From Candidatus Latescibacterota bacterium (lineage in GTDB: Bacteria > Latescibacterota > CBDCVA01), in assembly GCA_965222935.1 (NCBI GenBank), contig CBDCVA010000002.1, positions 1,035,442-1,099,441 of the forward strand: DNA of 64,000 bases, written 5' to 3'. Numbering within the stretch: position 1 is the first letter of the stretch; each line of letters begins with the position of its first letter. The translations under genes were made by a program, and so were the position numbers. Below the pieces are notes generated by a model. It was given only the letters and a program-made list of their open reading frames with translations. It was not told where the DNA came from and did not search any database. Positions 9,066 through 35,450 of this stretch are shown one piece after another.

Positions 9066-9115
9066 CGCCCCCAATGGCAAGCGTGTGCTGAATCGAGCCC
9101 CAGCGTAACCCACGC

Positions 9116-21123: not shown

Positions 21124-21295
21124 CTCTTGCTCCCCTCCCTGCATGTGCCAGCGGAGCTTCCGCTGCCAGCGGAGCTTCCGCCGGGGAGGGGTCGGGGGTG
21201 GGGTCTCTTTAGGGTGGGGTTAGTGTCACTTTTTCAGCACTGACTTTTGCCCCAAAAATGACGATCTTCCCCCTCGCGCCCGAAGAGAGCAGCGA
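21124..21295. repeat. composite intergenic repeat: A element (GC-rich structured palindrome) plus B element (conserved gene-proximal ~75-bp motif), copy 1
   Basis: A: ctcccctccctgcatgtgccagcggagcttccgctgccagcggagcttccgccggggagggg...gggtgggg. B: ggttagtgtcac-N7-cagcactgactt...aaaatgacgatcttccc...gagagcagc, ending about 20 nt before the ATG at 21316. Confidence 0.85.
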
Positions 21296-21315
21296 CCAAA
21301 GAGGAGAGCGACGCC

Positions 21316-22158
21316 ATGACCCGAATGAAGCTCACGCCACAGCAACTGGCCTTCATCGACACCTTTGGATTCCTTCACTTTCCGGGGCTTCTGAGGGACT
21401 GCATCGATGAGATCATCGGTGCATTCGAAGCCGTCTGGGCGGCCCACGGCGGCGGGCACGACGACAAGGCGCACGACGGCACGGAGCGCTCCTGCATCGT
21501 CCCTTTCGTCGATCAGAGCGAATACCTCTGTGGGCTTCTGGACGATCCTCGCATTGACGGCATCATCGCAAGCCTGCTCGGCGACGACTACAACTACCTG
21601 GCCAGCGACGGCAATTACTACGTGGGAGATACCCGCTGGCATTCCGATGGGGGCTGGCAGCGGCCCATCGTCTACTACAAGATGGCCTTTTATCTCGACC
21701 CATTGACGCGTGATACGGGCGCCTTGCGCGTTATACCCGGCAGTCACAGGCACGAGGATGCGTATGCGGAGAGCCTGCAGCGGGGTCTACCTGGCTCCGA
21801 GGAGGCCTGGGGCGTCCACGGTAGCCAGGTGCCGGCCGTGGCCCTGGAGACCGAGCCGGGCGATGTCGCCGTCTTTCATCAAGGTACCAAGCACAGCAGT
21901 TGGGGCGGCGGTGCGAGACGACGGATGTTCACCCTCAACTTTTCAGCCCGGTATACCCCCGAACAGTTGCCTATGCTGCGCGGCGAGATCAGTAAGCTCG
22001 CCCGGTTCTGGATGGATTCGGTCTATGGCGAGACGATGCTTCGCACCGCTGGCCCCGAGCGTATGCGCCACCTCGAACAGGCCCTGGCCAACCAGGATCA
22101 TCTGCCGGAACTCTCCCGTGCGGCGCGCGAAGAGATGAACGAGCCCTCGCGCGGGTGA
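21316..22158 (+). CDS. PhyH-family Fe(II)/2OG dioxygenase-like protein (fourth paralogue, divergent)
   Basis: TRWHSDGG (HxD) and GDVAVFHQGTKHSS motifs on a double-stranded beta-helix-like layout. Confidence 0.65.
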   Translation: MTRMKLTPQQLAFIDTFGFLHFPGLLRDCIDEIIGAFEAVWAAHGGGHDDKAHDGTERSCIVPFVDQSEYLCGLLDDPRIDGIIASLLGDDYNYLASDGNYYVGDTRWHSDGGWQRPIVYYKMAFYLDPLTRDTGALRVIPGSHRHEDAYAESLQRGLPGSEEAWGVHGSQVPAVALETEPGDVAVFHQGTKHSSWGGGARRRMFTLNFSARYTPEQLPMLRGEISKLARFWMDSVYGETMLRTAGPERMRHLEQALANQDHLPELSRAAREEMNEPSRG

Positions 22159-22186
22159 TCATCGCCCGCAGCGTCCAGGCGCCGCT

Positions 22187-23161
22187 ATGGGATCGTCCCA
22201 GGCCATGATCGTCGATGCGCACGTCCACATCTTCCCCGAGGTCCGGGGCCTGGTGGGCGCTGGTCCCACGCGCGGTCTGGGCTATGGCCGTATCGCCATT
22301 GGCGACGGGGAGATGCAACTGCTCCCGCCCTATGGCGAGAAAACCGTCTTCACGGCTGAAATGCTCCTCGCGAACATGGATTGGGCCGGAGTGGACAAGG
22401 CGGTCATGCTCCAGGGGCCGTTCTACGGAGCGTGCAATCCGTACGTGCTGGAGGCCCAAAGCCGTCATCCCGAGCGTCTATTGGGCGCCGCTTTCCTCGA
22501 TCCGTGGGCCCCCGACAATCGCACAGCCTTCGACGCCATCGCCGCTTCATCCGGCTTTCGGGCGGTCAAACTCGAGTGTTCCGTGTCGGCCGGACTGTGC
22601 GGCATCCACCCCGAGGCCAGGCTCGATGCGCCCGAGATCGCCTGGCTGTGGGCCGAGCTCGAAGAGCGCGGATGGGTCCTGGTCCTCGATCTGGGTGCCG
22701 TGGGCAGTCGCTCCTATCAGACGAGCGCCGTGCGCGCCATCGCCGAAGAGCATCCCGGCCTCCGGATCGTCGTAGCGCATCTGGGCCAACCGACCCCCCA
22801 GGCGGAGGCCGACCCGGCCCTGTGGCGTCTGTGGCTCGATCAGATCGATCTTGGCCGTCTGCCCAACGTGTGGTTTGACACGGCCGCTCTTCCGCACTAC
22901 GTGCCGGACGAGGACTACCCCTACCCCAGCGCGGGACGGTACTTGCGCCTGGCTGCCGAACGCATCGGCCCGGCCAAGATCATGTGGGGCACGGATCAGC
23001 CGGGGCTTCTCGGTTACGCGAACTATCCGCAACTGGTGAAGCTGGCCGCCTTGCACACCGGGTTTCTGTCATCCGATGAACGAGCCCTCATTCTCGGTGG
23101 AAACGCCCTGCACGTTTACCGCTGGTCGTCGCGTTCAGTGATTCGCGAGGGGAAAGATTGA
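22187..23161 (+). CDS. amidohydrolase-2 family metal-dependent hydrolase (TIM barrel)
   Basis: MIVDAHVHIF start, ...VVAHLGQP..., ...WGTDQP... typical of PF04909-type amidohydrolases. Confidence 0.7.
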   Translation: MGSSQAMIVDAHVHIFPEVRGLVGAGPTRGLGYGRIAIGDGEMQLLPPYGEKTVFTAEMLLANMDWAGVDKAVMLQGPFYGACNPYVLEAQSRHPERLLGAAFLDPWAPDNRTAFDAIAASSGFRAVKLECSVSAGLCGIHPEARLDAPEIAWLWAELEERGWVLVLDLGAVGSRSYQTSAVRAIAEEHPGLRIVVAHLGQPTPQAEADPALWRLWLDQIDLGRLPNVWFDTAALPHYVPDEDYPYPSAGRYLRLAAERIGPAKIMWGTDQPGLLGYANYPQLVKLAALHTGFLSSDERALILGGNALHVYRWSSRSVIREGKD

Positions 23162-23239
23162 GCGCCCCTGAGCCTCGGGAATCCCGGCTTCGTTCCCTGC
23201 GCATCCGGGCCAACCGCCCCCCAGGCGGAGGCCGACCTT

Positions 23240-23504
23240 ACTCCCCTCCCTGCAAGCGGGGAGGGGCTGGGGGTGGGGTTCTCTTGCTCCCCTCCCTGCA
23301 TGTGCCAGCGGAGCTTCCGCTGCCAGCGGAGCTTCCGCCGGGGAGGGGGTTAGTGTCACGAATCTAGCACTGACTTAGCCCCTCCGATGCATTATCTTCC
23401 CACCCGTGATGACCGAGAGCGCTTGGACACAGCAAGAGGAGGCCTTCGCCACCGCCTTGGCCGATGGGCTGACCGAAGCCGAATCCGCCCAGGCGGCCGG
23501 CTGC
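23240..23504. repeat. composite repeat: A element (tandem short and full copies) plus long B element carrying a truncated TerS-like ORF start
   Basis: A at 23240-23349; B (ggttagtgtcacgaatctagcactgactt...attatcttcccacccGTGATGACCGAGAGC...) continues as MTESAWTQQEEAFATALADGLTEAESAQAAGC and then diverges. Preceded at 23199-23238 by a 40-bp copy of amidohydrolase gene sequence 22776-22815. Confidence 0.8.
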
Positions 23505-23579
23505 GCAGTGGGAAAAGAAAAGGCCCCCGCGCGGGCTGGGCACGGGGGCCGCATCGTAAAGCGATGGCCAGAGAAGGGC

Positions 23580-24200
23580 CTACCGCAGGAACGCCGCCTT
23601 GACCGCCCTCCACGTGGCCGCTTCCACCGCCACCGAGTCGTTTTGGTTTTCCCCATCGGGTCCAATGATGGGCGCGCCCGAAGTTACCAGCGCTTCGATT
23701 TCTTCGAGCTGTTCGAGCAGGGACAGGTTGGGATCGACCTCCACCCAGTGGCCGGTGCTGATCTTCGCGAAATAGCCGGTGTGCGGAATCAACGGATCCG
23801 GCACGATCAGCGCCCCATCCACAACGCGGTAGAAATACCCGCCTATCTGTGATAGGTTAGCACCGACCTTGATGCGGACATCCGTGCCGCCTGGACCTTC
23901 TCCCATGAGAGTAGTCCCGCCGTGGAAGTCGAGTTGATCCCAGCCGCCCAAGGCTTCTGCAATGGCCTTGAGCTCGTCGAACCTGCCTGCAACGTTGTCG
24001 GGATCGATCTCCACTTCGTCGCCGGACGTCGTGCCGATCGTGACCCCCGTGAAAGAGGGGTCGGAGCGGTCTATCTCCACAAGTTGGCCGTCCACAAGGC
24101 GGAAGAGACGCCCTTCTGCACTGCTGGAACCCACCGTGAAAACGAGCAATACAGCGGCCAGAACGCAGGCCCCAAGACAAAAAACGGAGCGCTTTGACAT
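23580..24200 (-). CDS. hypothetical secreted protein with two internally repeated halves
   Basis: Signal peptide MSKRSVFCLGACVLAAVLLVF; two related segments (FRLVDGQLVEIDRSD...EIDPDN... and YRVVDGALIVPDP...WVEVDPN...). Confidence 0.5.
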   Translation of the reverse strand: MSKRSVFCLGACVLAAVLLVFTVGSSSAEGRLFRLVDGQLVEIDRSDPSFTGVTIGTTSGDEVEIDPDNVAGRFDELKAIAEALGGWDQLDFHGGTTLMGEGPGGTDVRIKVGANLSQIGGYFYRVVDGALIVPDPLIPHTGYFAKISTGHWVEVDPNLSLLEQLEEIEALVTSGAPIIGPDGENQNDSVAVEAATWRAVKAAFLR

Positions 24201-24837
24201 GGCTCAACTCCTCCTTGAAATAAAAGATAGAGGCCCCGCCCTTGTAGACGGGGACTCTATCTATCCTAGATCGAATCGGTGCTTCACCAGCGTGAGGTTT
24301 TTGGACGCCTTAGAAGTCACCAACGGTGATAGGTTGATATGTAGGTTCCAGCAGCAACGGCGTTACCGCTCTCATCCAGCCCATTTCACACGATGCTGTA
24401 CTTCATGCACCAAGGTCCGCACGCACGGTCTGGGCCAGAGCTTCTCGGCAACCGGGAGCGCACTATCGGAACAACATCTTGATGGCGTCCCAACTCGACT
24501 CCACAGGGGCCGCGCCCGTGCCTTGATGCCCCGCTGTTGGGGGGCTTGTTGTAGGTGGTGAAACGCAAGTAAAACAGGGGCTTCGTCTATGGGATGGAAT
24601 ATAACCAACCTACGGCGCAATAAAAGCTTCCGATATCTGTTTGTCAAGAGAAAAATGATGGAGGAGATTTCATTTATGTGTTGTTGGGAAAAAACGATCT
24701 ATGAGCGGAAAGCCGCGCGCAGGGCCTCGATGCTGACCCTAGCCACGGTCCCGGGGTCTGGGCCGATCTGGACCGGCGTCGCCGATGGTCTTCGGGTCAC
24801 TCCCTACTCCGCTAACGATCTCCTCGCCCGTGACCGA

Positions 24838-24993
24838 TGTAGTGTCACACATCCAGCACTGACTTGGCCCCTCCAATGTATTATCTTTCCACCCGTGATG
24901 ACCGAGAGCACTTGGATACCGCAGGAGAAGGCCTTCGCCACCGCCTTGGCCAATGGGCTGACCGAAGCCGAATCCGCTCAAGCGGCCGGCTGC
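24838..24993. repeat. long B element (copy 3), including the 5' end of the TerS-like ORF
   Basis: gtagtgtcacacatccagcactgacttggcccctccaatgtattatctttccacccGTGATGACCGAGAGC...; near-identical to copy 2 over about 150 bp. Confidence 0.8.
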
Positions 24994-25398
24994 ACCCCCG
25001 AAGCCGCCTTGCAACTCTTGAGCGACGCGACTTTCCGCACCCATCTGGACGCGCTCACGCTACAGCGGTGCCGCGCGGCGCGCGCCGAAGCCTTGAGAGT
25101 CGCCCGGCGCAAGCTGCGCGAAGCGATGAACGCCCCCTCGAAGAAGGACCCGCTCGACTGGGTCAAGCTCGTGTGGACGCTATCCAACGACGTCGCCGCC
25201 GGAGATCCCTTCCCCCCTCCTCACGCGGGGCCTTCCTTTATCTCCCCTCCCTGCCTGCCCGCGGAGCTTCCGCCGCCCGCGGAGCTTCCGCCGGGGAGGG
25301 GGTTAGGGGGTGGAGTTAGTGTCACTCATCCAGCACTGACTTTCATCCCGAAAATGACGATCTTACCACTCGCGCCCGATGAGAGCAGCCGCCGATGA
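24898..25398 (+). CDS. small HTH protein resembling the N-terminal DNA-binding domain of phage terminase small subunit (TerS-like); C-terminus reads through repeat elements
   Basis: MTESTWIPQEKAFATALANGLTEAESAQAAGCTPEAALQLLSDATFRTHLDAL... has the spacing of TerS/HTH N-termini. The reading frame continues through the A3/B4 repeat to a stop at 25396-25398, so the 3' part is probably not native coding sequence. Confidence 0.3.
   Translation: MTESTWIPQEKAFATALANGLTEAESAQAAGCTPEAALQLLSDATFRTHLDALTLQRCRAARAEALRVARRKLREAMNAPSKKDPLDWVKLVWTLSNDVAAGDPFPPPHAGPSFISPPCLPAELPPPAELPPGRGLGGGVSVTHPALTFIPKMTILPLAPDESSRR
25241..25392. repeat. composite repeat: A element plus short B element (copy 4) upstream of the ADH gene
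   Basis: ctcccctccctgcctgcccgcggagcttccgccgcccgcggagcttccgccggggaggggg, then agttagtgtcactcatccagcactgactttcatcccgaaaatgacgatcttaccactcgcgcccgatgagagcagc; ADH ATG at 25421. Confidence 0.85.
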
Positions 25399-25420
25399 CA
25401 CAGACGAGAGGAGTGCACCC

Positions 25421-26521
25421 ATGAAGGCCGCAGTGGTTCATGAACTGAATGCCCCCTTCGTCATCGAGGACGTAACGCTCGAAGAGCCCGGTCCGGGTGA
25501 AGTGCGGGTCCGCATGGCTGCCAGCGGCGTCTGTCATTCCGATTGGCATGTGCTCACCGGTGCGTTCCCCCGTCGTCCGATGCCCGTCGTGTTGGGGCAC
25601 GAGGGGGCCGGCGTTGTGGAAGCCACCGGGCGCGGGGTGGCCCATGTCGAGCCCGGCGACCATGTCATCCTGTCCTGGGCACCGGCGTGCGGCGCATGCT
25701 TCTACTGCCTGCGCGACAGGGCCGGACTCTGCGAAACCTTCCTGGGGCCGAGGCGGGAGGGCACCATGCTCGACGGCACCACCCGCATGCGGATTCATGA
25801 CGAAAGGGTGCACCAGTTCAACGCGGTATCCACGTTTGCCGAGCGGACGGTTGTCCCCGAACAGGCGTGCGTCCCGGTGGGTAAGGAGTTGCCGCTGAAA
25901 ATCGCGGCCCTGATCGGCTGTGCCGTCACGACGGGTGTGGGAGCGACCATGTACACCGTTCAGATACGGCCCGGTGACAGCGTCGTCGTTTATGGTTGCG
26001 GTGGCGTGGGATTGAACGTCTTGCAGGGGGCCGCCCTGCACGGCGCTGAACCCATCATCGCCATCGATCAAATGCCGGCGAAAATGGAGCTCGCCAGGAC
26101 CTTCGGCGCGACGCACGCCGTGGTGGCCGACGAGGGGACGACCGACGCCATCCGGGACCTCACGGGGGGACGCGGCGCGGATTATGTCTTCGAAGCCATC
26201 GGTATCCCGGCGGTGCAGGAGGCGGCGTTTGATGCGTTGCACCCGGGCGGGACGCTGGTGCTGGTCGGCGCTGCGCCCGTGGGCTCTTCCATCAGCCTGC
26301 CCCCTCTCACGATCACCTTGCACGAAAAGAGAGTGATAGGAAGCCTCTACGGCTCTTCCAATCCGCGCCGGGACTTTCCCCTGCTCCTGGATCTCTACGC
26401 GGCGGGCAAGCTCAAGCTCGATGAACTGATCTCCCGCGAGTATCGTCTGGACGAGATCAACGCAGCTTTCGAGGCCATGCTGGGCGGCGAGGTGGCCCGC
26501 GGTTTGATCGTCTTCGACTAG
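25421..26521 (+). CDS. zinc-dependent alcohol dehydrogenase (MDR superfamily)
   Basis: MKAAVVHELNAPFVIEDV..., catalytic-zinc ligands in GVCHSDWH and GHEGAG, structural-zinc CGACFYC, Rossmann VVYGCGGVG. Confidence 0.85.
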   Translation: MKAAVVHELNAPFVIEDVTLEEPGPGEVRVRMAASGVCHSDWHVLTGAFPRRPMPVVLGHEGAGVVEATGRGVAHVEPGDHVILSWAPACGACFYCLRDRAGLCETFLGPRREGTMLDGTTRMRIHDERVHQFNAVSTFAERTVVPEQACVPVGKELPLKIAALIGCAVTTGVGATMYTVQIRPGDSVVVYGCGGVGLNVLQGAALHGAEPIIAIDQMPAKMELARTFGATHAVVADEGTTDAIRDLTGGRGADYVFEAIGIPAVQEAAFDALHPGGTLVLVGAAPVGSSISLPPLTITLHEKRVIGSLYGSSNPRRDFPLLLDLYAAGKLKLDELISREYRLDEINAAFEAMLGGEVARGLIVFD

Positions 26522-26577
26522 GCGATGGGTGTCGGTATGCACGAGCGACGGACGTTGGTCCTCAGTGGAGATTTCGC

Positions 26578-27726
26578 ATGGAGATGGTCCGAGTAGCCAC
26601 CTTTGAAGGTCCCGGAGCCGGGCCCCGGATCAGGACCGTGCCCCGGCCGAACGTGCCGGATGTGGCCGCATTGATTCAGATCGGCGCCTGCGGCGTGTGC
26701 GGCACCGACCTCCATATCCTCGAGGGCCACTGGCCCAAGCCCCTGCCCTGGCCCTTCACGCTGGGCCATGAGTTGGCCGGCATCGTCGTCGAAAAGGGCC
26801 CCGCCCTAAAAGCCGATTTCATGGGCCAACCCCTCTCCGTCGGCTCGAAGGTCATGCTGCCGCCGCTCATGCCTTGCGGGGAGTGCGACTACTGCGTGCA
26901 CTACCCGGCGAACGCCAACAAATGTCTCAATCCGACCTACTATGGCCGGTATCTTCCCTTCGATAAACCCCCGCACCTCTGGGGCGGATGGGCCGAGATG
27001 GTCTATGTGGACCTGGAGATGCTGCCGGCCACCAAGATCTACCGTCTGCCGGATAGCATGTCACTGATGCTCGGGTCGTTGGCCGAGCCGCTCACCTCCT
27101 GCGTTCGCGCGCTCAACCGGGCGGTGGGTGTCGGCGGCTTCCGGGTCGGCGATGCGGTAGTCGTTCAGGGCTCGGGGCCCATCGGCCTTCTAACGATGGT
27201 CGCGGCCAGGGAGATGGGCGCCGGCCGCGTCGTGGTGGTGGGCGCCCCCGATCAGCCGCGACTGGCTCTGTGCCGCGAATTCGGCGCCGACGCCACCGTG
27301 TCCATCGAGACCCACACGACAGCGCAGGCGCGGATCGACGCCGTCCGGGAGATCGTCGGCGGTTACGGAGCCGATCTCGTCGTTGAGTGCAGCGGCCATC
27401 CCTCGGCCGGCCCGGAGGGGATCGAGATGCTGCGCGACGGCGGGACCTACGTCGAGATGGGCCAGTTCACCGACGCGGGCTCCATCGAAACCAACTGGCA
27501 CCGCATCTGCACCAAGGACATCAACCTCCTGGGAAGCTGGGCCTTCACCGCCAACGACATCCCCCTGGCCATCGACATGCTCGACCGCGCCCGCGACCGC
27601 TACCCGTGGCACCGAATGCAGACGCGGTTCCCCTTCACCGAGGAGGGCGTCGCGGAGGCGACCGAAAGCGCCATGGCCATGCGCTGCCTCAAGGCCACCA
27701 TCATACCGAACGAGGGGATCGGCTGA
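26578..27726 (+). CDS. zinc-dependent dehydrogenase (MDR superfamily, polyol/threonine dehydrogenase-like)
   Basis: GACGVCGTDLHILEGHW, GHELAG, CGECDYC, VVQGSGPIG. Confidence 0.85.
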   Translation: MEMVRVATFEGPGAGPRIRTVPRPNVPDVAALIQIGACGVCGTDLHILEGHWPKPLPWPFTLGHELAGIVVEKGPALKADFMGQPLSVGSKVMLPPLMPCGECDYCVHYPANANKCLNPTYYGRYLPFDKPPHLWGGWAEMVYVDLEMLPATKIYRLPDSMSLMLGSLAEPLTSCVRALNRAVGVGGFRVGDAVVVQGSGPIGLLTMVAAREMGAGRVVVVGAPDQPRLALCREFGADATVSIETHTTAQARIDAVREIVGGYGADLVVECSGHPSAGPEGIEMLRDGGTYVEMGQFTDAGSIETNWHRICTKDINLLGSWAFTANDIPLAIDMLDRARDRYPWHRMQTRFPFTEEGVAEATESAMAMRCLKATIIPNEGIG

Positions 27727-28108: not shown

Positions 28109-28130
28109 CGGCCTCTGTTATGCCCTGCAT

Positions 28131-28628
28131 TCACCGGATCGACTGGTACAACTGCACGCTCCAACCCCGAAAGCCGTCGCGCTCGTAGAACTGTAGAATT
28201 TGGTGCAAATCCTTCGTGCCGCTAAAGACATGCAAGTGCGTGAAGCCGTCGCGCTTGGCGCGCTCCTTGACTCGCTCGAGGAGCAGAGAGCCGATGCCAC
28301 GAGACCGATGATCCGGGATGACGTAAATGTCGTCAATTTCGAAATATTTCGTCCCTTCAGGGATCACGGCCAGACCGTCGCTCATGCGCTCACTGGCGGT
28401 GACGAACCCAACGACGGTCCCTTCGAGTTCCGCGACGAGGAAATACCCCTGGAACGCCGCTCGTATCTGTTCCTCGCTCGCCGGAACGAAGCCGTAGGTA
28501 ATGTCCTCATGAGCCCATTGAACCTGAAGATGGCGAACGCGCGGCACGTCGGCCTCGGTTTGCCTTCCTGACAGTAGCTGCGGGTTCCATTCGCCGGACT
28601 TGATGAGGCATAATGGACTTGAGCTCAA
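28131..28628 (-). CDS. GNAT family N-acetyltransferase
   Basis: Acetyl-CoA-binding motif ...YVIPDHRSRGIGSLLLERVKERAKRDGF...; start uncertain; lower-GC region. Confidence 0.6.
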   Translation of the reverse strand: MSSSPLCLIKSGEWNPQLLSGRQTEADVPRVRHLQVQWAHEDITYGFVPASEEQIRAAFQGYFLVAELEGTVVGFVTASERMSDGLAVIPEGTKYFEIDDIYVIPDHRSRGIGSLLLERVKERAKRDGFTHLHVFSGTKDLHQILQFYERDGFRGWSVQLYQSIR

Positions 28629-28739
28629 AGACTACGGTTTATCCGAGATTCATCGGAGCGAATAGTTATGTAACGGTCTCCGTAGTCATTCGACATCCCG
28701 TTTAATGCGATGGTAAGCCAAGACGCTCAACGTAGGCTG

Positions 28740-29495
28740 CTACTCGACCCCGAGCGTGGCCAGCCTCTGCAACGCGCCTTCCAATTCCTCAAGCGACCTA
28801 ATTTCCGTGTATCGTGTCGATTTGATGTCCGGGTTCATAACCTTACCACGGTTGATGAGAACCGCCCACATGCCAGCCGCGAGTGCACCGCCGATGTCAT
28901 CGTCAGGATTGTCACCGATATGTACTGCGTGGTTCGGCGGTACGTCCAGCTCTTGGAGCGTCGAATCGAAGATTTGCCGGTCCGGCTTCCCACAGCCGAG
29001 TTCCTCCGACACAGATATCACGTCGAAATAATGGGACAGTCGCGTGACGGCAAGTTTCTCAAGCTGGATTTGCCGCGTCCCGTTCGTAATCACCGCCATC
29101 CTGCATTGGCCACGCAACCGGTGGAGTGTGTGCTCAGCGTCCTCGAATGCCATGTAGCCGATCGTACGGCGAGCTTCACCGTAGGTCCGAGCAGCAAAAT
29201 GCGCTGCTTCTGGGCTGTCGACGCCACTGGCAGTCAACGCAAGGCTCCAAACCTCGACTCTGATTTCGTCTCCCGACTTCTGTGGATCTCCCATGCTCGG
29301 AATCTTTCCAAGACTAGACCACATCTGCTTGCTGGCATGCAGGTAATTCGTCATAAGGCACTGGGCGTCGACACTCGGATAGGTGTCCACGATCTTTCGA
29401 GTCGTGTGCTCTGCCGCCATCCCAGCCCCCCGTTCATCATCTAGCAGAGTTTCGTCGAGGTCGAAACAGATGGCTTGAAATCCATACACAGTCAT
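28740..29495 (-). CDS. HAD-superfamily hydrolase
   Basis: Motif I FDLDETLL, motif III GKPD, motif IV HIGDNPDDDIGGA; start placed at MTVYGFQAICFDLD; lower-GC region. Confidence 0.7.
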   Translation of the reverse strand: MTVYGFQAICFDLDETLLDDERGAGMAAEHTTRKIVDTYPSVDAQCLMTNYLHASKQMWSSLGKIPSMGDPQKSGDEIRVEVWSLALTASGVDSPEAAHFAARTYGEARRTIGYMAFEDAEHTLHRLRGQCRMAVITNGTRQIQLEKLAVTRLSHYFDVISVSEELGCGKPDRQIFDSTLQELDVPPNHAVHIGDNPDDDIGGALAAGMWAVLINRGKVMNPDIKSTRYTEIRSLEELEGALQRLATLGVE

Positions 29496-29791
29496 GGCGT
29501 AAAGTTGGGTTTCAGTCCTCTCGATACTGTGAGCCACATAACGAGCCGCGAGTCATGAGCCAGCGCCGACAGCACCGGAGTAAGACCTGGGCAGCGGGAA
29601 ATCAACTCTCGAAGGCCACGAGCTGAAGCCGGTCCCGTGGAACCGCGTGCTAGCCCCGTCAAGGAACGAATGACGACAGAGTGCGTCACGACGAGTACGC
29701 GTTGCCGCTTTCGATACTTGCTGAGGGCACCCAATAGGACTGACGGAAAACGGGCAGGTCAACCGTGCGGACGCGCCTCCACTGGCCGCTG

Positions 29792-30940
29792 CTATTTCCG
29801 CTCGGTGTAATCCCGCCCGGCTTTTGAGATGGCTTGCTTACGGAGCGCCATGAGCTCGTGCCGCTTGTCAGCGGACCACTCTTGGGAAGCTTTCAGGCTC
29901 ACCAGAGAGCCCTGGAAGTGGGGCATCACGTACCGTGCGATGAGCTCGTAGCTATGCAGGACCTGCTCGCGGGTGGCGAATTCCGTGGCCTGAACCAATA
30001 GCCCGCCGAAGCCTCCGGTTTGACCGTCCAGCCGCTCTATGGCGGCGATCAGATCGTCCGGCGTTCCGATGCACCACTGGCCCTTGTCCACCATGACGTC
30101 GATGATGTTCTCGGCGGGGCCGTCATCCATCACGGGATCGAAGCCCATAGTGCCCTCGAAGTAATCGCGCTGGTAACGCGCAGCACCCCAGCGAGCTCCT
30201 TCGATGGCCTCCTCGCGGCTCTCCGCCAGATGCACGAGAAGCACGAGCCGCCAGTCCTCCCGCTTCACGGTCTTGCCGTGCTCGGCGGCCGTCTCTTCGG
30301 CGATCTTCCAGTAGTCATTCAGCGTTGACGTATAGCTCTCTTTCGTGATGATGCTGACCGACAGCACCCCCGCTCCGTGCTTGCCCGCCAGCCTCATCCC
30401 CGTAGGCGACTGGGAGGCCGCCACCGCGATGGGAAAGTGGGGCTGCGTATAGGGCCGCAGGTGGAGCCGGGCCTCCCTGAGGGTGAACCACTCGGACTCG
30501 TGGGTGATAGGCTCCGTCTCGGTCAAGAGCCGCATGATGATTTCGAGGGCCTCGTCCATGCGCTGCCGCTGAACCAAGTGGTCTATCCCCAGCATGTACG
30601 CATCCGTGGTCAGGGCGCCCGGCCCCACGCCCATCATGACCCGGCCCCTGGTCAGGTGGTCCAGGAGCACCATCCGGTCCGCCACCATCAGGGGATGGTG
30701 GTAGGGCAGGCTGACGACGCCGGTGCCGAACTTGATGTGTCTGGTGCGTTCGGCGGCGGCGGCGATGAAGACCTCCGGCGATGCGATCGTCTCCCAGCCG
30801 GCGCTGTGGTGTTCGCCGATCCACGCCTCGTCAAAGCCGAGGGTATCGAGCCACTGTATGAGCTCCAGGTCCCGCTCCAGTCCCAGCGTGGGGTTCTCGC
30901 CCAGCCGGTGGAACGGCCCCAGGAAGATGCCGAATTTCAT
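29792..30940 (-). CDS. LLM-class (luciferase-like) flavin-dependent monooxygenase/oxidoreductase
   Basis: MKFGIFLGPFH... TIM-barrel LLM N-terminus, ...AWIGEHH..., length about 380 aa. Confidence 0.75.
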   Translation of the reverse strand: MKFGIFLGPFHRLGENPTLGLERDLELIQWLDTLGFDEAWIGEHHSAGWETIASPEVFIAAAAERTRHIKFGTGVVSLPYHHPLMVADRMVLLDHLTRGRVMMGVGPGALTTDAYMLGIDHLVQRQRMDEALEIIMRLLTETEPITHESEWFTLREARLHLRPYTQPHFPIAVAASQSPTGMRLAGKHGAGVLSVSIITKESYTSTLNDYWKIAEETAAEHGKTVKREDWRLVLLVHLAESREEAIEGARWGAARYQRDYFEGTMGFDPVMDDGPAENIIDVMVDKGQWCIGTPDDLIAAIERLDGQTGGFGGLLVQATEFATREQVLHSYELIARYVMPHFQGSLVSLKASQEWSADKRHELMALRKQAISKAGRDYTERK

Positions 30941-31186
30941 ACGTGCGGGTAACGCCATGCCACGATCCTTTCGTCTTTACCGCCGCTCCGGTGCATCACC
31001 ATCCACACCAACATCATCGACGCCGCAGCAATCCGAAGGGTCCTATACTATACCCCCTCTATCCGAAGGAGGCACACTTTTTCACGCCGGGCTACTTTTC
31101 ACGCCGGGCTACCCGCCCAGAGGCGCACCGCCGGCGGTCTCCGCCCGGCGTGTGGATCGACACCGGCTGGCCTCGGGGTAGGGTTT

Positions 31187-32332
31187 CTACCAGTTGGTGT
31201 AGGAGCCATCGCGCCTGTGCAGGTGAGGTCCTTCCCAGAACCTGAACGACTCCTCCACCCTCTCTTCGTTGAACTCGACGCCCAGGCCGGGTTCCGTCGG
31301 CAGGGGATAGCGCGTACCCTCGAGCCGATGCTGAAGCGGAAAGGCCTCCGTCCTGAAGGCGGATTCCCGACAGCGGTCTTCCAGCCAGGCGAAGTTAGGC
31401 ACCGCAGCGCCGAAGTGAATGTGCGCGGCGGTGCTGATCGGACCCAACGGATTGTGCGGCATCATGTCGATGTAGTGGGCCTCGCACCAGCCGGCCACCT
31501 TCATGGCCTCGGTGAACCCTCCCACGTTGCAGACGTCGATCCTCGCGAAGTTGGTCAGGCCCCGCTCGATGTAGGGCAAAAAGGCCCACTTGCTCGAAAA
31601 CTCCTCGCCGATGGCCATCGGCACCGGCGTCATCCGGCGGAGCGCAGCGTAGGCTTCGGGCGCCTCATCGCGGATCGGTTCCTCGAGAAAATCCAGGGTG
31701 CCAGGCGGCATCATCTGGCAGAAGGACGCCGCTTCCGCGACGTTCAGGCGGTGGTGGTAGTCGATCCCGAGCACCGGCGCCCGACCCAGCGCTTCCCGCA
31801 CCCGGGTCATCCATTCCGCGGTCACCGCCGTGGACTCGCGGGGCTCGTGCAGGCACTCGTCTCCGGGCGGATGATGCCAGGCGGGGACAAACCGGATGAC
31901 ATCCCAGCCCTCCCCGACGAGGCGCCTGGCGTCTTCGATGACTTGCGGGCCATCGAGCTCCCGGGCGGTGACGAAACAGGGAACAGCGTCGCGCTGGGCG
32001 CCCCCCAAGAGCTGATACACCGGCACGCCCAGTTTTTTTGCGACGAGGTCGTGCAGCGCGATGTCGATGGCGGAGATGGCCCCCGTGAGGATGCGTCCAC
32101 CCTCGAAGTACTGGCCGCGGTACATCTCCTGCCACAGCGCACCGATCCGCATGGGGTCCTTGCCGATCAAGAATTCGCGGAAGTGCGCCACGGCACCCTG
32201 GACCGCCAGCTCCCGACCCGAGACGCCCGCTTCACCCCAGCCGCAGAAGCCCTCGTCGGTCTCGATCTTCAGCACGAACTGGTTCCTGAACTCGACCCAG
32301 ACCGGATAGGTCTTTATCTCCGTGATCTTCAT
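31187..32332 (-). CDS. enolase-superfamily sugar-acid dehydratase (mandelate racemase / D-galactonate-D-mannonate dehydratase family)
   Basis: MKITEIKTYPVWVEFRNQFVLKIETDEGFCGWGEAGVSGRE... capping domain; barrel metal ligands (...IDYHHRL..., ...FLEEP..., ...DMMPHNP...). Confidence 0.8.
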   Translation of the reverse strand: MKITEIKTYPVWVEFRNQFVLKIETDEGFCGWGEAGVSGRELAVQGAVAHFREFLIGKDPMRIGALWQEMYRGQYFEGGRILTGAISAIDIALHDLVAKKLGVPVYQLLGGAQRDAVPCFVTARELDGPQVIEDARRLVGEGWDVIRFVPAWHHPPGDECLHEPRESTAVTAEWMTRVREALGRAPVLGIDYHHRLNVAEAASFCQMMPPGTLDFLEEPIRDEAPEAYAALRRMTPVPMAIGEEFSSKWAFLPYIERGLTNFARIDVCNVGGFTEAMKVAGWCEAHYIDMMPHNPLGPISTAAHIHFGAAVPNFAWLEDRCRESAFRTEAFPLQHRLEGTRYPLPTEPGLGVEFNEERVEESFRFWEGPHLHRRDGSYTNW

Positions 32333-32385
32333 AGCTCCCTCTCCAGCATCTGCGAGTTCATGCGCGTCCCTTCCCTTCTATGGAG

Positions 32386-32575
32386 AAACCCCACCCCCGG
32401 CTCCTCGTTCGGCGCGGGTGGGAAGATCGTCATTTTCGGGGTGAAAGTCAGTGCTGGATTGGTGACACTAACCCCACCCCCGGCCCCTCCCCGCATGCAG
32501 GGAGGGGAGCAAGATCAAGTTCAAAGGCAACGGGAACGTGCAGAGGGGCCACACATGCAGGGAGGGGAGTAAGAG
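32386..32575. repeat. composite repeat: short B element (reverse orientation, copy 5) flanked by A-element fragments, upstream of the enolase-superfamily gene
   Basis: Reverse complement of 32401-32473 = ggttagtgtcaccaatccagcactgactttcaccccgaaaatgacgatcttcccacccgcgcc...; A-like aaccccacccccggcccctccccgcatgcagggaggggag at 32471-32510 and again near 32550. Confidence 0.85.
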
Positions 32576-32623
32576 CAAGGGCCAGCGTCCACGTCCAGAG
32601 GCCGAACCCTCCCCAAGCCATGC

Positions 32624-33421
32624 TCAGTACGGCAACAGTCCGCCGGATGCGTTATAGGTCTGGCCGGTGACATAGCTCGCGTCCGACGACGCCAGAAAAG
32701 CGACGACGTTGGCGACGTCCTCCGGCTTCTGAATGCGCCCCAACGGTACGCTCGCGACCGCCCGCGCCTTCACCGAACCCACCGGCGCGCCCTCCAGTTT
32801 GGCGATCTCGCGGTCGATCAACTCCCACATCGGGGTGTCCACGATCCCGGCGCACACGCAGTTGACGAGAATGCCGTGCGACGACAGCTCCAGGCCCATC
32901 TGCCTGGTCAGCCCGACGACGGCGTGCTTGCTGGCAGCATACGCGCCCAGCGGCACGCCCTTGCCGGGCGCGATCTTGCCCGCACCGGAGGCGTTGTTGA
33001 TGATCCGGCCGCCCTCGCCCTGGGCGATCATCCGCCGCGCCGCCGCCTGCGAGCAGAGAAACACTCCCTTGGCGTTCACGTCCATCAGCCGGTCCCAGAC
33101 CGCTTCGTCGGTATCCAACAGCGGCGCGACGGCTCCAATACCCGCGTTGTTGACCAGGATGTCAAGCCGACCGAATCGCGCCGCAGCCGCGCGAACCATT
33201 CCCTCAGCATCGTCTTTGTGCGTCACGTCCACCCTGAGGGGGAGGGCCACGCCGCCAGCCGCACCTATCTCCCCGGCCACCTCCACCGCGTTTCCCTCGT
33301 CGATATCCGCGACGGCCACGCTCGCACCTTCGCGGGCCAGCCTGAGCGCGATGGCCCGCCCGATTCCGCGTCCGCCGCCCGTCACGATGGCGGCCTGTCC
33401 CTCCAGATCGTACCTTGGCAC
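32624..33421 (-). CDS. short-chain dehydrogenase/reductase (SDR)
   Basis: TGGGRGIGRAIA cofactor motif, NNAG, catalytic YAASK; GTG start at 33419-33421. Confidence 0.85.
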   Translation of the reverse strand: MPRYDLEGQAAIVTGGGRGIGRAIALRLAREGASVAVADIDEGNAVEVAGEIGAAGGVALPLRVDVTHKDDAEGMVRAAAARFGRLDILVNNAGIGAVAPLLDTDEAVWDRLMDVNAKGVFLCSQAAARRMIAQGEGGRIINNASGAGKIAPGKGVPLGAYAASKHAVVGLTRQMGLELSSHGILVNCVCAGIVDTPMWELIDREIAKLEGAPVGSVKARAVASVPLGRIQKPEDVANVVAFLASSDASYVTGQTYNASGGLLPY

Positions 33422-33445
33422 CGTCGCTTTCCCTCGCCCGTCTAG

Positions 33446-33732
33446 TGCGCCGTCCCACGAATACCCTGGAGAAACCCCACCCCCCTACCCCCTCCCCGGC
33501 GGAAGCTCCGCTGGCGCAAGCAGGGAAAGGGCAAAAGAGGGAACCCCGCCAGCCAGTGGGGAGGGGGGCGCCCACAAGAGGCGCCCCTACGACTGGGCTC
33601 ACTCCGCCCGCGCGGGGACAGGCGCCTTGCAGGTCGAGTGCCTCGGTACCACGATCCGCACCACAAACCCCACCCCCGGCCCCTCCCCGCATGCAGGGAG
33701 GGGAGCAAGATTGTGGCGTCTGCGGCCTGCCC
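33446..33732. repeat. A-element cluster (two A copies) inserted between the VOC and SDR genes, flanked by ~57-bp direct repeats of the SDR 5' end
   Basis: A-type sequences at about 33470-33510 and 33665-33710. Direct repeats 33388-33445 and 33720-33776 (gcggcctg...ccagatcgtaccttggcaccgtcgctttccctcgcccg(t/c)ctag) duplicate the SDR start region. Confidence 0.8.
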
Positions 33733-33773
33733 GTCCAGATCGTACCTTGGCACCGTCGCTTTCCCTCGCCCGC

Positions 33774-34298
33774 CTAGCCCCTCGGCTCCCTAGTCTCGAC
33801 CGGGGTCTCCATGAACTCGAGGACGTATCCATCGGGGTCCTTGAAGAAGGCGACGCGCACGATGCCCCATTCGAGATCGAAGCTGACCGGCTCGGACACG
33901 AACTCGACCCCCCTGGCACTCAGATCCCGATAGGCCGCCCGGATGTCCGGGACGCCGAAGCAGATGTGCGAGTGGCCGACATCGCCCAGTTCGGCATCCG
34001 AGACCCCGCCTTCGGGCGCGTGGTACTGTTGCAGATCGATCTCGATTCCCGGTGTCCCGGGGGCCACGATCCGCACCACGTCCATCACGACGTTGGGCTT
34101 GCCGGCCATCTTCGAGATGGTCTCGCCTTCGAGGCGGTGCCGCTCCACCTCCTTCAGTCCAAGGAGACCGCAGTAGAACGCCAGCGAGCGGTCCATATCG
34201 CTCACCGTGACCGAGACGTGGTCCAGGATGCTGACGGCGTCGTTCATGGTGACCTCCGGGTGTGTGGGCTCCACCAGAGCAGCGGCTCCTTCCTCCAT
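33774..34298 (-). CDS. VOC-family protein (glyoxalase/bleomycin-resistance/dioxygenase fold)
   Basis: ...ILDHVSVTVSDMDRSLAFYCGLLGL... and ...HICFGVPDIRAAYRDLSARGVEF... beta-alpha-beta-beta-beta modules; the internal Met at 34247 is an alternative start. Confidence 0.7.
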   Translation of the reverse strand: MEEGAAALVEPTHPEVTMNDAVSILDHVSVTVSDMDRSLAFYCGLLGLKEVERHRLEGETISKMAGKPNVVMDVVRIVAPGTPGIEIDLQQYHAPEGGVSDAELGDVGHSHICFGVPDIRAAYRDLSARGVEFVSEPVSFDLEWGIVRVAFFKDPDGYVLEFMETPVETREPRG

Positions 34299-34319
34299 CC
34301 CGACCTTCCGATGGGCGAG

Positions 34320-34535
34320 TCCAACCGCGCGGGTGGGAAGATCGTCAATATCGGGGTGAAAGTCAGTGCTGGAAAAGTGACACTAAGTGAACCCCGGCCC
34401 TAAAGAAACCCCACCCCCGACCCCTCCCCGGCGGAAGCTCCGCTGGCACATGCAGGGAGGGGAGTAAAGACAAGAGCCTGCGTCCACGTTCAGAGGCCGA
34501 ACCCTCCCCGGGTGCAGGGAGGGGAGAAGGGCAAG
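34320..34535. repeat. composite repeat: short B element (reverse, copy 6) plus A element, upstream of the VOC gene
   Basis: Reverse complement of 34320-34390 = tcacttagtgtcacttttccagcactgactttcaccccgatattgacgatcttcccacccgcgcgg...; A: aaccccacccccgacccctccccggcggaagctccgctggcacatgcagggaggggag. Confidence 0.85.
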
Positions 34536-34559
34536 GGCAGCCAGTGCGTCCAGTCCGAC

Positions 34560-35432: not shown

Positions 35433-35450
35433 CGCCCTTCTCCTCTCACC

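What the first reader, a model, noticed from the sequence alone, without database searches (positions are those of the whole stretch)
21218..34390. Conserved ~75-bp motif (B element) immediately upstream of six unrelated genes, derived from the 5' end of a phage TerS-like gene
Six copies share TTAGTGTCAC-N7-CAGCACTGACTT-N(8-10)-(A/T)ATGAC/ATTATCTT(C/A)CC(A)CC almost base for base: 21218 (before the PhyH-like gene), 23348 and 24838 (long copies), 25314 (before the ADH), and in reverse at 32401-32473 (before the enolase-superfamily gene) and 34320-34390 (before the VOC gene). Each copy points toward the nearest start codon, 20-100 nt away. In the two long copies the motif runs straight into GTGATGACCGAGAGC..., the start of a small HTH ORF (MTES(A/T)W..QE.AFATALA.GLTEAESAQAAGC) that resembles a terminase small-subunit N-terminus. 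In the short copies the same stretch has decayed to non-coding (cgcgcccgaagagagcagc). This looks like a portable promoter/5'-leader module, possibly phage-derived, that has been spread onto catabolic genes. An operator, RNA leader or transposon end are alternative readings.
Basis: partly seen in the sequence, partly recalled or inferred. Interest (0 to 1): 0.8.

Follow-up and report, generated by a model that had tools for sequence, protein, structure and literature searches.

The report
Phage terS promoter copied onto host genes
A ~60-80 bp promoter-like module that normally sits in front of the small-terminase gene of a resident prophage-like gene cluster has been copied in front of four unrelated sugar/alcohol-oxidation operons of the host, an uncharacterised example of promoter reuse whose source can be traced, though transcription itself is untested.

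Summary
The core TAGTGTCAC-N6-AGCACTGACTT occurs six times in the window, all exact, against 0 expected. The spacer is N6, not N7. Each copy points at a start codon at most about 90 nt away.

Two copies precede a small HTH gene. Its only homologues sit directly upstream of a large terminase, portal, protease and capsid genes in related contigs, so TerS-like is supported by gene order. Profile hits are weak and there is no Pfam hit.

In those clusters the "short" form of the element lies immediately upstream of terS. The short copies are therefore a second allele of the terS upstream region, not decayed coding sequence.

Two boxes are invariant while the spacers between them are scrambled, which indicates selection on protein-binding sites. 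All ten known copies contain CTGACT-N17-(T/G)AT(C/A)TT. In the long form the -10-like hexamer lies 7 nt before the GTG-ATG start, which predicts a leaderless mRNA. I found no RNA structure, covariation or Rfam match.

Best reading (about 0.55): a phage late-operon promoter, with a regulator site, propagated onto host operons within a mosaic of intergenic repeats. This fits the published "putative mobile promoter" class. No transcription start has been mapped, so promoter function remains an inference.

The parts
21220..21279 (+). B copy 1 (short type), upstream of the PhyH-amidohydrolase operon. Box 1 is 21220-21229 and box 2 is 21236-21246. The -35-like CTGACT is 21240-21245 and the -10-like GATCTT is 21263-21268.
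   Evidence: PhyH and Amidohydro_2 by Pfam.
23350..23409 (+). B copy 2 (long type). The -35-like hexamer is 23370-23375 and the -10-like TATCTT is 23393-23398. The GTG-ATG start at 23406/23409 follows 7 nt later.
23409..23504 (+). A 32-codon fragment of the terS-like gene. Homology to the full copy ends at 23504.
   Evidence: Direct repeat D4, 23336-23504 against 24825-24993, 87% identical. Translation.
23505..24824 (.). A 1.3-kb segment lying between the two long copies. It carries a 206-aa secreted-type ORF (23580-24200, minus strand) with its own terminator-like hairpin (23550-23522) and an AT-rich upstream region.
   Evidence: No Pfam, PHROG or NCBIfam hit.
24839..24898 (+). B copy 3 (long type), the only copy with no A element upstream. 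The -35-like hexamer is 24859-24864 and the -10-like hexamer is 24882-24887. GTG is at 24895 and ATG at 24898.
24898..25398 (+). Solitary terS-like HTH gene. The conserved core is about 105 codons, to roughly 25215. The reading frame then continues through an A element and B copy 4 to the stop at 25398. No terL follows.
   Evidence: PHROG terS phrog_641 at E=1.9e-4. Best PDB profile hit is the Pam5 small terminase at E=0.022.
25316..25375 (+). B copy 4 (short type), upstream of two Zn-ADH genes. The -35-like hexamer is 25336-25341 and the -10-like hexamer is 25359-25364.
25395..25424 (+). A 9-codon mini-ORF (MTQTRGVHP*). It begins with the terS-type start ATGAC.GA.ACG, and its TGA stop overlaps the ADH start codon at 25421.
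   Evidence: Read directly, and compared with L002/L003.
32412..32471 (-). B copy 5 (short type), upstream of the enolase-superfamily and luciferase-like monooxygenase genes. The -35-like hexamer is 32451-32446 and the -10-like hexamer is 32428-32423. B plus leader (32470-32402, 69 nt) is flanked by perfect 14-nt direct repeats CCGGGGGTGGGGTT at 32484-32471 and 32401-32388.
34327..34386 (-). B copy 6 (short type), upstream of the VOC/glyoxalase gene. The -35-like hexamer is 34366-34361 and the -10-like hexamer is 34343-34338.
21126..21219 (+). A element next to B copy 1. It is a hairpin CCCCTCCC...GGGGAGGGG enclosing two copies of the 18-nt unit GCCAGCGGAGCTTCCGCT, followed by a G-rich tail. 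Equivalent A elements precede B copies 2, 4, 5 and 6 at 23237-23349, 25238-25315, 32472-32516 (minus) and 34387-34470 (minus).
33473..37045 (-). A elements that have no B attached, at about 33473-33516, 33666-33709, 34483-34532, 35487-35572, 36899-36984 and 37008-37045. Every A element in the window lies between 21.1 and 37.0 kb.

Best explanation
B is most likely a transcription-initiation module. It has three parts:
- Two conserved protein-binding boxes, TTAGTGTCAC and (C)AGCACTGACTT, separated by 6 nt of free sequence. Together they form an imperfect dyad, TnAGTG-N12-CACTnA.
- A weak sigma-70-type core, CTGACT-N17-(T/G)AT(C/A)TT, whose -35-like hexamer overlaps box 2.
- A C-rich discriminator, CCCACCC.

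Its native place is directly in front of terS, the first gene of a terS-terL-portal-protease-capsid cluster carried in the chromosomes of this bacterial lineage. There it would be the late or morphogenesis operon promoter. Its weak -35 and the conserved dyad, centred at about -41 to -44, suggest dependence on an activator, or control by a repressor.

Two alleles exist:
- The long allele puts the -10-like hexamer 7 nt before GTG-ATG, which predicts a leaderless mRNA.
- The short allele has a 27-nt leader with an AAAGGAG ribosome-binding site.

In the window, the short allele has been placed in front of four unrelated host operons. It brought along parts of the terS leader and, at the ADH gene, the terS start codon. 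The transfers probably occurred by recombination among the G-rich tails of the abundant A hairpin repeats that abut it. The result is that these operons share one promoter/operator.

What is shown: the repeat, its two alleles, its position at terS in phage-type clusters, box-wise conservation, fixed hexamer spacing, and the lack of RNA structure. What is inferred: promoter activity, the transcription start, dependence on a regulator, and the transfer mechanism.
For: 1. Six exact cores were found against 0 expected.
2. All four copies known outside the window lie directly upstream of terS homologues (L001, L002, L003, L087).
3. Those terS homologues are followed by TerL, portal, protease and major capsid genes: PHROG portal at 1.9e-76, protease at 1.6e-36 and capsid at 2.2e-67, and TerL by tblastn at 4e-52.
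4. Across eight copies, the boxes have 2 of 21 variable columns while the spacers have 13 of 16 (Fisher p=1.9e-5). For the four catabolic copies alone the figures are 0 of 21 against 9 of 16 (p=9e-5).
5. A permutation test that does not use pre-defined boxes gives p=0.022 for the longest invariant run and p=0.0027 for the two longest runs combined.
6. CTGACT-N17-(T/G)ATCTT is found in nine copies. L002 and L087 instead have GATATT, which is one step closer to TATAAT.
7. In the long allele the -10-like hexamer lies 7 nt before GTGATG and there is no ribosome-binding site. The short allele has AAAGGAG 10 nt before the ATG.
8. All ten copies point at a downstream start codon at most about 90 nt away.
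9. Remnants of the terS leader and start codon lie upstream of the ADH and PhyH genes.
10. The homology shared by two different chromosomal contexts of the cluster begins at A-B.
11. Precedent exists. Late-operon promoters lie upstream of terS and need activators that bind repeats or dyads just upstream of the polymerase site: RinA, Alt, Ogr and Mu C (PMC3152322). Near-identical promoters in front of non-homologous genes have also been catalogued (PMC3488235).
Against: - No transcription data exist.
- The consensus scan did not flag B. B matches 8 of 12 hexamer positions and the scan's threshold is 9.
- No activator or repressor gene was identified near any copy.
- In L001, box 1 has diverged and carries a 4-nt insertion, yet terS is retained there. 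Box 1 may therefore be dispensable.
- Only about 140 kb of this lineage could be examined, because the element is absent from every searchable DNA collection. The genome-wide copy number and positional bias are unknown.
- The boxes were defined after looking at the alignment, so the Fisher tests are partly circular. The permutation test is weaker.
- The direction of transfer, phage to host rather than host to phage, rests on only 5 of 10 copies being at terS.
Confidence: 0.55

Rival explanations
1. B is a selfish or neutral repeat module with no function of its own. It would be one tile of a mosaic intergenic repeat system, along with the A hairpin, the G-rich tail and other tiles. Recombination or gene conversion would have spread it, and its position upstream of genes would simply reflect where intergenic DNA is.
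For: - B is almost always fused to an A element, in 9 of 10 copies.
- A elements are very abundant and highly homogenised. For example, 21124-21191 and 23281-23348 are 100% identical.
- Other tiles are also shuffled. The VOC leader tile recurs upstream of the SGL gene without B (repeat D16). A 56-nt duplication flanks an A-containing insert (repeat D11).
- Copy 5 is flanked by 14-nt direct repeats.
Against: - The two boxes are invariant while the adjacent spacers are nearly randomised. Neutral decay or gene conversion does not predict that pattern.
- All ten copies face a downstream start codon.
- A elements occur in both orientations, and even inside terL. B does not.
Confidence: 0.15
2. The boxes are an operator for the solitary TerS-derived HTH protein encoded at 24898. 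On this reading the protein has been domesticated as a local transcription factor. It would autoregulate through its own B copy and co-regulate the neighbouring sugar/alcohol-oxidation operons.
For: - The terS-like gene is the only HTH gene found in the 21-37 kb cluster, and it carries B itself.
- Solitary copies with no terL occur in two different chromosomal contexts, each next to oxidoreductase genes: the window and L001.
- dN/dS between those two solitary copies is about 0.35 at dS of about 0.3.
- The solitary copies lack the C-terminal segment that the phage-type copies have. From general knowledge, that segment is the part of TerS that usually contacts TerL.
- TerS proteins are sequence-specific DNA binders that often recognise sites near their own gene (general knowledge).
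Against: - No binding data exist.
- A dN/dS of 0.35 is only moderate constraint.
- The C-terminus reads into repeat DNA, which looks more like decay than adaptation.
- One window copy is a 32-codon stump.
- In L001 the downstream Gfo gene has no B.
- The catabolic copies carry the phage-type (short) allele, not the allele found at the solitary gene.
Confidence: 0.1
3. B is the packaging recognition site (pac/cosB-like) bound by TerS. The chromosomal copies would be pseudo-pac sites that let the phage or a satellite package this region.
For: - B lies immediately upstream of terS, a common location for cos or pac sites (general knowledge).
- It has two conserved boxes, as expected for protein binding.
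- Homology between different chromosomal contexts of the cluster starts at B.
Against: - Selection to keep the boxes intact at host genes is hard to explain on this reading.
- So are the uniform orientation towards start codons, the -35/-10 geometry, the 7-nt distance to the start codon, and the carry-over of the ribosome-binding site and start codon.
- The terL of the resident clusters is interrupted by an A-element insertion. Active packaging is therefore doubtful.
Confidence: 0.07
4. The two boxes are the -24 and -12 elements of a sigma-54-type promoter. TGTCAC-N5-CAGCA would correspond to TGGCAC-N5-TTGCA. The start site would then lie in the second spacer, and the third conserved block would be part of the 5' UTR.
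For: - The spacing is exactly that of -24/-12 promoters, and 8 of 11 consensus positions match (read; the consensus is from general knowledge).
- The pattern of invariant boxes around a free spacer fits this class.
Against: - The second G of the near-invariant GG doublet is T in all ten copies.
- No enhancer-binding-protein gene or upstream activator sites were seen.
- This reading leaves the conserved (T/G)ATCTT-CCCACCC block and its 7-nt distance to GTG-ATG unexplained.
Confidence: 0.06
5. B encodes a structured RNA leader, such as a riboswitch, attenuator or sRNA.
For: A 7-bp imperfect hairpin (UUAGUGU/GCACUGA) is predicted in all copies.
Against: - That hairpin shows no compensatory changes at any of its 7 pairs, and its consensus energy is only -4.6 kcal/mol.
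- Folding z-scores for six copies range from -0.9 to +1.1.
- No Rfam match was found, either at gathering thresholds or at E<=1.
- Under the promoter model most of B lies upstream of the transcript.
Confidence: 0.03

Closest known systems
Putative mobile promoters (PMPs; Matus-Garcia, Nijveen and van Passel 2012, PMC3488235)
   Same: These are stretches of 50-100 nt, at least 80% identical, found upstream of non-homologous genes within one genome. Larger families vary near the translation start. B fits: the short copies are 83-92% identical over 60 nt, and their downstream genes belong to different Pfam families.
   Different: - The source of B can be traced to the terS upstream region of a prophage-like cluster.
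- Parts of the donor's leader and start codon were carried along.
- All copies found in the window lie within 13 kb, embedded in a mosaic of hairpin repeats.
- PMPs are an operational class. Membership does not prove promoter activity.
Activator-dependent phage late-operon promoters upstream of terS (RinA in phi11/80alpha, Alt in TP901-1, Ogr in P2, C in Mu; PMC3152322)
   Same: B occupies the same position, directly upstream of terS at the head of the morphogenesis genes. It also has conserved repeat or dyad sequences just upstream of, or overlapping, a weak -35.
   Different: - No activator gene was found.
- There is no sequence similarity to those promoters.
- No start site has been mapped.
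- Known late promoters are not reported in that paper to have been copied onto host catabolic operons.
Mosaic intergenic repeats that carry promoters or terminators (Correia elements of Neisseria, BIME/REP; my own knowledge, with CREE mentioned in PMC3488235)
   Same: These are short modular intergenic repeats, assembled combinatorially, that can supply regulatory signals to neighbouring genes.
   Different: - B itself has no terminal inverted repeats and no strong palindrome. Only the neighbouring A element does.
- B is rare, with ten copies known, while A is abundant.
- B is strictly oriented towards genes.
Small terminase subunits (TerS)
   Same: This comparison concerns the ORF, not the motif. 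The ORF encodes a small protein with an N-terminal HTH followed by long helices. Its homologues lie directly upstream of terL in three contexts. The best PHROG and PDB profile hits are small terminases.
   Different: - There is no Pfam or NCBIfam match, and the structure search gave nothing significant.
- Both window copies are solitary, with no terL.
- One is a 32-codon stump. The other has its C-terminus replaced by translated repeat DNA.

Membership tests
Putative mobile promoter (PMP) family | A stretch of 50-100 nt, at least 80% identical between copies, within about 150 nt upstream of coding sequences | tested here: met
   The four short copies are 85-92% identical over 60 nt, and 83-92% when L002 and L003 are included. 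The two long copies are 87% identical to each other. All copies end at most about 90 nt from a start codon.
Putative mobile promoter (PMP) family | Downstream coding sequences are not homologous, and neither are the upstream ones | tested here: met
   The downstream genes are PhyH, Zn-ADH, an enolase-superfamily gene and a VOC gene, plus terS. The upstream genes are a TPP enzyme, terS, an SDR and an SGL gene. The non-coding A repeat upstream is shared between copies.
Putative mobile promoter (PMP) family | Not the terminal repeat of an insertion sequence, and not a known RNA element | tested here: met
   There is no transposase next to any copy. The nearest is an IS1595-type fragment at 41208-41810. 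Rfam gives no match.
Phage late-operon promoter upstream of terS | Lies immediately upstream of terS at the head of the packaging/head gene cluster | tested here: met
   This holds in L002, L003 and L087.
Phage late-operon promoter upstream of terS | A transcription start inside the element | not testable with these tools
   No transcript data are available. The only support is a -35/-10-like pair at fixed 17-nt spacing.
Phage late-operon promoter upstream of terS | Dependence on a phage-encoded activator that binds the region | tested here: inconclusive
   Conserved boxes and a dyad are present. No candidate activator gene was found in the up to 10 kb flanks that could be read.
Cis-regulatory RNA / riboswitch | A conserved secondary structure supported by covariation, or a match to a curated RNA family | tested here: not met
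   None of the 7 predicted pairs shows a compensatory change. Folding z-scores are -0.9 to +1.1. Rfam finds nothing.
MITE / transposon end | Terminal inverted repeats and target-site duplications at each copy | tested here: not met
   B has no terminal inverted repeats. Only copy 5 is flanked by direct repeats, and those are part of the A tail.
Sigma-54 (-24/-12) promoter | A GG doublet at -24 and GC at -12, 10 nt apart | tested here: not met
   The spacing and the GC fit, but the doublet is GT in all ten copies.
pac/cos packaging site | DNA termini or TerS binding at the site | not testable with these tools
   Only the location next to terS is known.
Small terminase (the ORF at 24898) | Encoded directly upstream of terL in a packaging module | tested here: not met
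   In the window no terL follows either copy. The feature is met for the homologues in L002, L087 and L004. The window gene is therefore TerS-derived, but it is not part of a packaging module.
Small terminase (the ORF at 24898) | Sequence or profile similarity to known TerS families | tested here: inconclusive
   phrog_641 at E=1.9e-4. phrog_2538 at 2.7e-5 for homologue P0004. PDB Pam5 TerS at E=0.022. Pfam and NCBIfam give nothing. Foldseek gives nothing significant.

The most novel reading that the evidence does not exclude
A small-terminase-derived HTH protein, the solitary terS-like gene at 24898 and its counterpart in L001, has been domesticated as a transcription factor. The B boxes would originally have been its own recognition site or promoter in the phage. 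They would now serve as its operator in front of at least four host sugar/alcohol-oxidation operons. That would be a host regulon built from a phage packaging protein and its DNA site.
Probability: 0.1. Interest if true: 0.8.

Novelty: new member of a known kind. Interest (0 to 1): 0.4.

Why it matters
Promoter reuse is thought to be a fast route to rewiring gene expression, but for most catalogued cases neither the donor nor the transfer mechanism is known. Three things are visible here that usually are not:
- The donor can be identified: the promoter region of the terS-led head operon of a resident prophage-like cluster.
- Two alleles can be told apart.
- The junctions are preserved. They show a carried-over leader, ribosome-binding site and start codon, and one copy is flanked by 14-nt repeats of a hairpin element's tail.

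If transcription from B is confirmed, four unrelated host operons would be wired to a phage late-type signal. That would link host sugar/alcohol oxidation to whatever controls the prophage-like cluster.

The lineage is uncultured. The nearest protein relatives are in MAGs of several phyla, and the window encodes an ankyrin-repeat protein. Its promoters are otherwise unknown, so the element also gives a first candidate promoter architecture for it, including leaderless initiation.

Tried and rejected
- **DNA collection scans.** Exact-pattern scans for B found nothing in GTDB species representatives (strict core) or, with the core relaxed by one base, in JGI metagenomes and IMG/VR. Scans for the A element also found nothing in IMG/VR or JGI metagenomes. 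No genome-wide census was therefore possible.
- **Searching for translated B.** I searched the protein database with the open reading frame that runs through B, hoping to find more copies. It returned only one chance hit.
- **Taxonomy.** The TPP enzyme gave 71-73% hits spread over Chloroflexota, Poribacteria, Terriglobia and Anaerolineae MAGs. The taxonomy is unresolved. No synteny with the window's catabolic genes was found in those loci, so the state before B arrived could not be reconstructed.
- **RNA readings.** Rfam at gathering and E-value thresholds found nothing. RNAalifold and single-sequence folds showed nothing above background. The RNA-leader reading was rejected.
- **Promoter scan.** The sigma-70 consensus scan did not flag B. 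B matches 8 of 12 positions, just under the scan's threshold, so this neither confirms nor excludes a promoter.
- **Structure of the HTH protein.** The AlphaFold model had pLDDT 69, and Foldseek against the PDB gave no significant match. It could not separate a TerS fold from generic HTH folds.
- **Phage records.** GenBank phage records have no DNA match to B-terS and no tblastn match to the TerS.
- **Transposon-end reading.** Rejected, because B has no terminal inverted repeats and no adjacent transposase.

Full report

Yes. The core TAGTGTCAC-N6-AGCACTGACTT has six exact matches in the 64-kb window, at 21221+, 23351+, 24840+, 25317+, 32470- and 34385-. None was found in 100 dinucleotide-preserving shuffles. 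The second spacer is 10 nt.

The repeat finder recovers the same copies and shows two types:
- Four "short" copies, 85-92% identical to one another over 60 nt.
- Two "long" copies, 87% identical to each other.
- Short and long copies are 65-73% identical.

Each copy points at an ORF start at most about 90 nt away. Four of those ORFs are unrelated enzymes (Pfam): PhyH, Zn-ADH, an enolase-superfamily gene and a VOC gene. The other two are a small HTH gene (24898) and a 32-codon stump of the same gene (23409).

**2. What is the small ORF?**

It has no Pfam or NCBIfam match. Among 5.8 billion proteins it has only four homologues. Their genomic contexts settle the question.

| Locus | Gene order after the homologue | Evidence |
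|---|---|---|
| L002 | terL (in two pieces), portal, head protease, major capsid | portal phrog_113 1.9e-76; protease 1.6e-36; capsid 2.2e-67 |
| L003 | same order (portal, Mu-like protease by Pfam) | |
| L087 (4.2-Mb chromosome, same sample) | 127-aa homologue overlaps a 569-aa terL | terL matches a Bacillus phage terminase at 4e-52 |
| L004 (35% identical homologue) | terL | phrog_979 2e-41 |

Weak profile hits point the same way:
- phrog_641 (terS) at 1.9e-4.
- phrog_2538 (terS) at 2.7e-5 for P0004.
- Best PDB profile hit, the Pam5 small terminase, at 0.022.

The AlphaFold model (pLDDT 69) shows an N-terminal HTH followed by long helices, but it has no significant structural match.

"TerS-like" is therefore supported, mainly by gene order. 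In the window, however, both copies are solitary. No terL follows. One copy is a stump, and the other reads through repeat DNA to its stop.

**3. Where does B belong?**

Outside the window I could find B in only four places. Each is directly upstream of a terS homologue: L001, L002, L003 and L087.

L002, L003 and L087 carry the short type, with the sequence ...GAT(C/A)TTCCCAC(C/T)CGCGCTGAACAAAGGAGCAGCTACCGATGACGGAAACG. The short copies in the window are therefore not decayed coding sequence. They match a second allele of the terS upstream region, which has a 27-nt leader and an AAAGGAG ribosome-binding site.

Remnants of that leader sit upstream of the catabolic genes. At the ADH gene the terS start itself survives as a 9-codon mini-ORF (25395-25424, MTQTRGVHP*), and its stop overlaps the ADH start codon.

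L003 and L087/L002 place the cluster in different chromosomal contexts. Their shared sequence begins at the A-B junction.

**4. Evidence that B is functional, and what kind of element it is**

*Box-wise conservation.* Across eight copies, the two boxes have 2 of 21 variable columns and the two spacers have 13 of 16 (Fisher p=1.9e-5). In the four catabolic copies alone the figures are 0 of 21 against 9 of 16 (p=9e-5). The boxes were defined from the alignment, so I also ran a permutation test on the lengths of invariant runs. It gave p=0.022 for the longest run and p=0.0027 for the top two. Invariant boxes next to scrambled spacers indicate selection on protein-binding sites in every copy, including those at host genes.

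*Promoter geometry.* All ten copies contain CTGACT, a 17-nt spacer, then (T/G)AT(C/A)TT. The A at position 2 and the T at position 6 of the -10 hexamer are always kept. L002 and L087 have GATATT, one step closer to TATAAT. In the long allele this hexamer is followed by CCCACCC and then GTGATG, with no ribosome-binding site. That is the geometry of a leaderless mRNA.

*Placement of the boxes.* With this assignment, the imperfect dyad TnAGTG-N12-CACTnA formed by the two boxes is centred near -41 to -44. That is where class II-type activators and the Mu C protein act (general knowledge, and PMC3152322).

*What does not fit.* The simple consensus scan did not flag B, which matches 8 of 12 positions against a threshold of 9.

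*RNA readings.* These fail. There is no Rfam hit, no covariation, and folding z-scores near zero.

**5. Context**

The window is ordinary bacterial chromosome, with SerRS, LepA, HemN and ABC exporter genes. It also has an ankyrin-repeat protein and many oxidoreductases. The closest relatives of one enzyme are spread over MAGs of several phyla, so taxonomy is unresolved.

B is embedded in a mosaic of other repeats. The A element is a hairpin CCCCTCCC...GGGGAGGGG enclosing one or two 18-nt units, followed by a G-rich tail (CCGGGGGTGGGGTT). It abuts 9 of the 10 B copies but also occurs alone. In the window, every A element lies between 21.1 and 37.0 kb. In the related contigs A elements are dense, and one sits inside terL.

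A copies are far more homogeneous than B copies. The A elements next to copies 1 and 2 are 100% identical, yet those two B copies are of different types. A and B are therefore separate modules.

Copy 5 (B plus leader, 69 nt) is flanked by perfect 14-nt direct repeats of the A tail. This suggests recombination among A tails as the transfer route. That is an inference.

**6. Best explanation and rivals**

| Reading | Confidence |
|---|---|
| B is the promoter-plus-regulator-site module of the terS-led operon of a prophage-like cluster, copied onto four host operons | 0.55 |
| Neutral mosaic-repeat tile | 0.15 |
| Operator for a domesticated TerS-derived regulator | 0.10 |
| pac/cos-type site | 0.07 |
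| Sigma-54-type -24/-12 promoter (spacing fits, but GG is GT in all copies) | 0.06 |
| Structured RNA | 0.03 |

For the domesticated-regulator reading, dN/dS between the two solitary copies is about 0.35.

**7. Comparison with what is known**

Operationally, B meets the published criteria for a "putative mobile promoter" family (PMC3488235). In its native position it resembles activator-dependent late promoters upstream of terS, such as those controlled by RinA, Alt, Ogr and Mu C (PMC3152322).

The specific sequence is absent from Rfam, GTDB representatives, JGI metagenomes, IMG/VR and GenBank phages. It is a new member of a known kind. Its interest is modest. It lies in the traceable phage origin and the preserved junctions, and in the small chance that a TerS-derived protein acts as the regulator.

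**8. Limits**

There are no transcription data. Only about 140 kb of this lineage was readable, no regulator was identified, and the direction of transfer is inferred.

Noticed in passing
window 21126-37045 (for example 21126-21204, 23283-23348, 35487-35572, 36899-36984); also L001, L002, L003 and L087: An abundant 'A' repeat family. It is a hairpin CCCCTCCC...GGGGAGGGG enclosing one or two tandem 18-nt units (GCCAGCGGAGCTTCCGCT, itself a small hairpin), followed by the tail CCGGGGGTGGGGTT. Stem plus tail give four G-runs of at least four G's with 1-2 nt loops, a textbook G-quadruplex motif. In the window all copies lie within 21-37 kb. The family is absent from the JGI and IMG/VR scans.
   Followed up: partly
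L087 9243-9410 (inside terL, 8295-10004); L002 3326-3447: A elements are inserted inside the large-terminase gene, between the ATPase part and the nuclease part. Homology to phage TerL stops at residue 315. The insertion is in frame in L087, giving a 569-aa ORF, but it splits the gene into 362-aa and 176-aa pieces in L002. The cluster may be a decaying or domesticated prophage.
   Followed up: partly
window 33390-33445 and 33722-33777: A 56-nt direct repeat, 95% identical, that duplicates the 5' end of the SDR gene. The two copies flank a ~330-bp insert containing two A elements. This looks like the footprint of how these repeats insert.
   Followed up: no
window 35460-35490 against 34299-34329: The leader tile downstream of B at the VOC gene (CGCGGTTGGA.T..CCCATCGGAA.GTCGGG) recurs upstream of the SGL lactonase gene. 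There it is joined directly to an A tail with no B. Intergenic tiles are therefore shuffled independently of one another.
   Followed up: no
window 23505-24824: A 1.3-kb segment lies between the two long B-terS copies, which form a 169-nt direct repeat at 87% identity. It carries a 206-aa ORF with a signal-peptide-like N-terminus, an internal repeat, its own terminator-like hairpin and an AT-rich upstream region. The ORF has no family match.
   Followed up: partly
window 32361-32330 (minus strand): A 10-codon upstream ORF (ATGAACTCGCAGATGCTGGAGAGGGAGCTATGA) whose stop overlaps the start codon of the enolase-superfamily gene. It mirrors the ATGA overlap seen at the ADH gene.
   Followed up: no
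window 27701-29537: A lower-GC patch where the two gene arms converge. It encodes a nucleotidyltransferase (Aminoglyc_resit family), a GNAT acetyltransferase and a HAD hydrolase, all on the minus strand. It is possibly a separate acquisition.
   Followed up: no
window 41208-41810, 43766-45031 and 53176-55017: An IS1595-type transposase fragment, an ankyrin-repeat protein with low GC3, and a GmrSD-type restriction endonuclease gene.
   Followed up: no
L003 974-1358: The terS in L003 is frameshifted relative to L002 and L087, and only its C-terminal 92 aa was called as a protein. This is either a pseudogene or a long-read indel error.
   Followed up: no
L001 10001-10507: A second solitary terS-like gene, 86% identical to the window's, sits in a different chromosomal context. 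It lies between AAA-ATPase genes and a Gfo/Idh/MocA oxidoreductase gene. Box 2 and the -10-like block are intact, but box 1 has diverged and carries a 4-nt insertion. The C-terminus again runs into an A element.
   Followed up: partly
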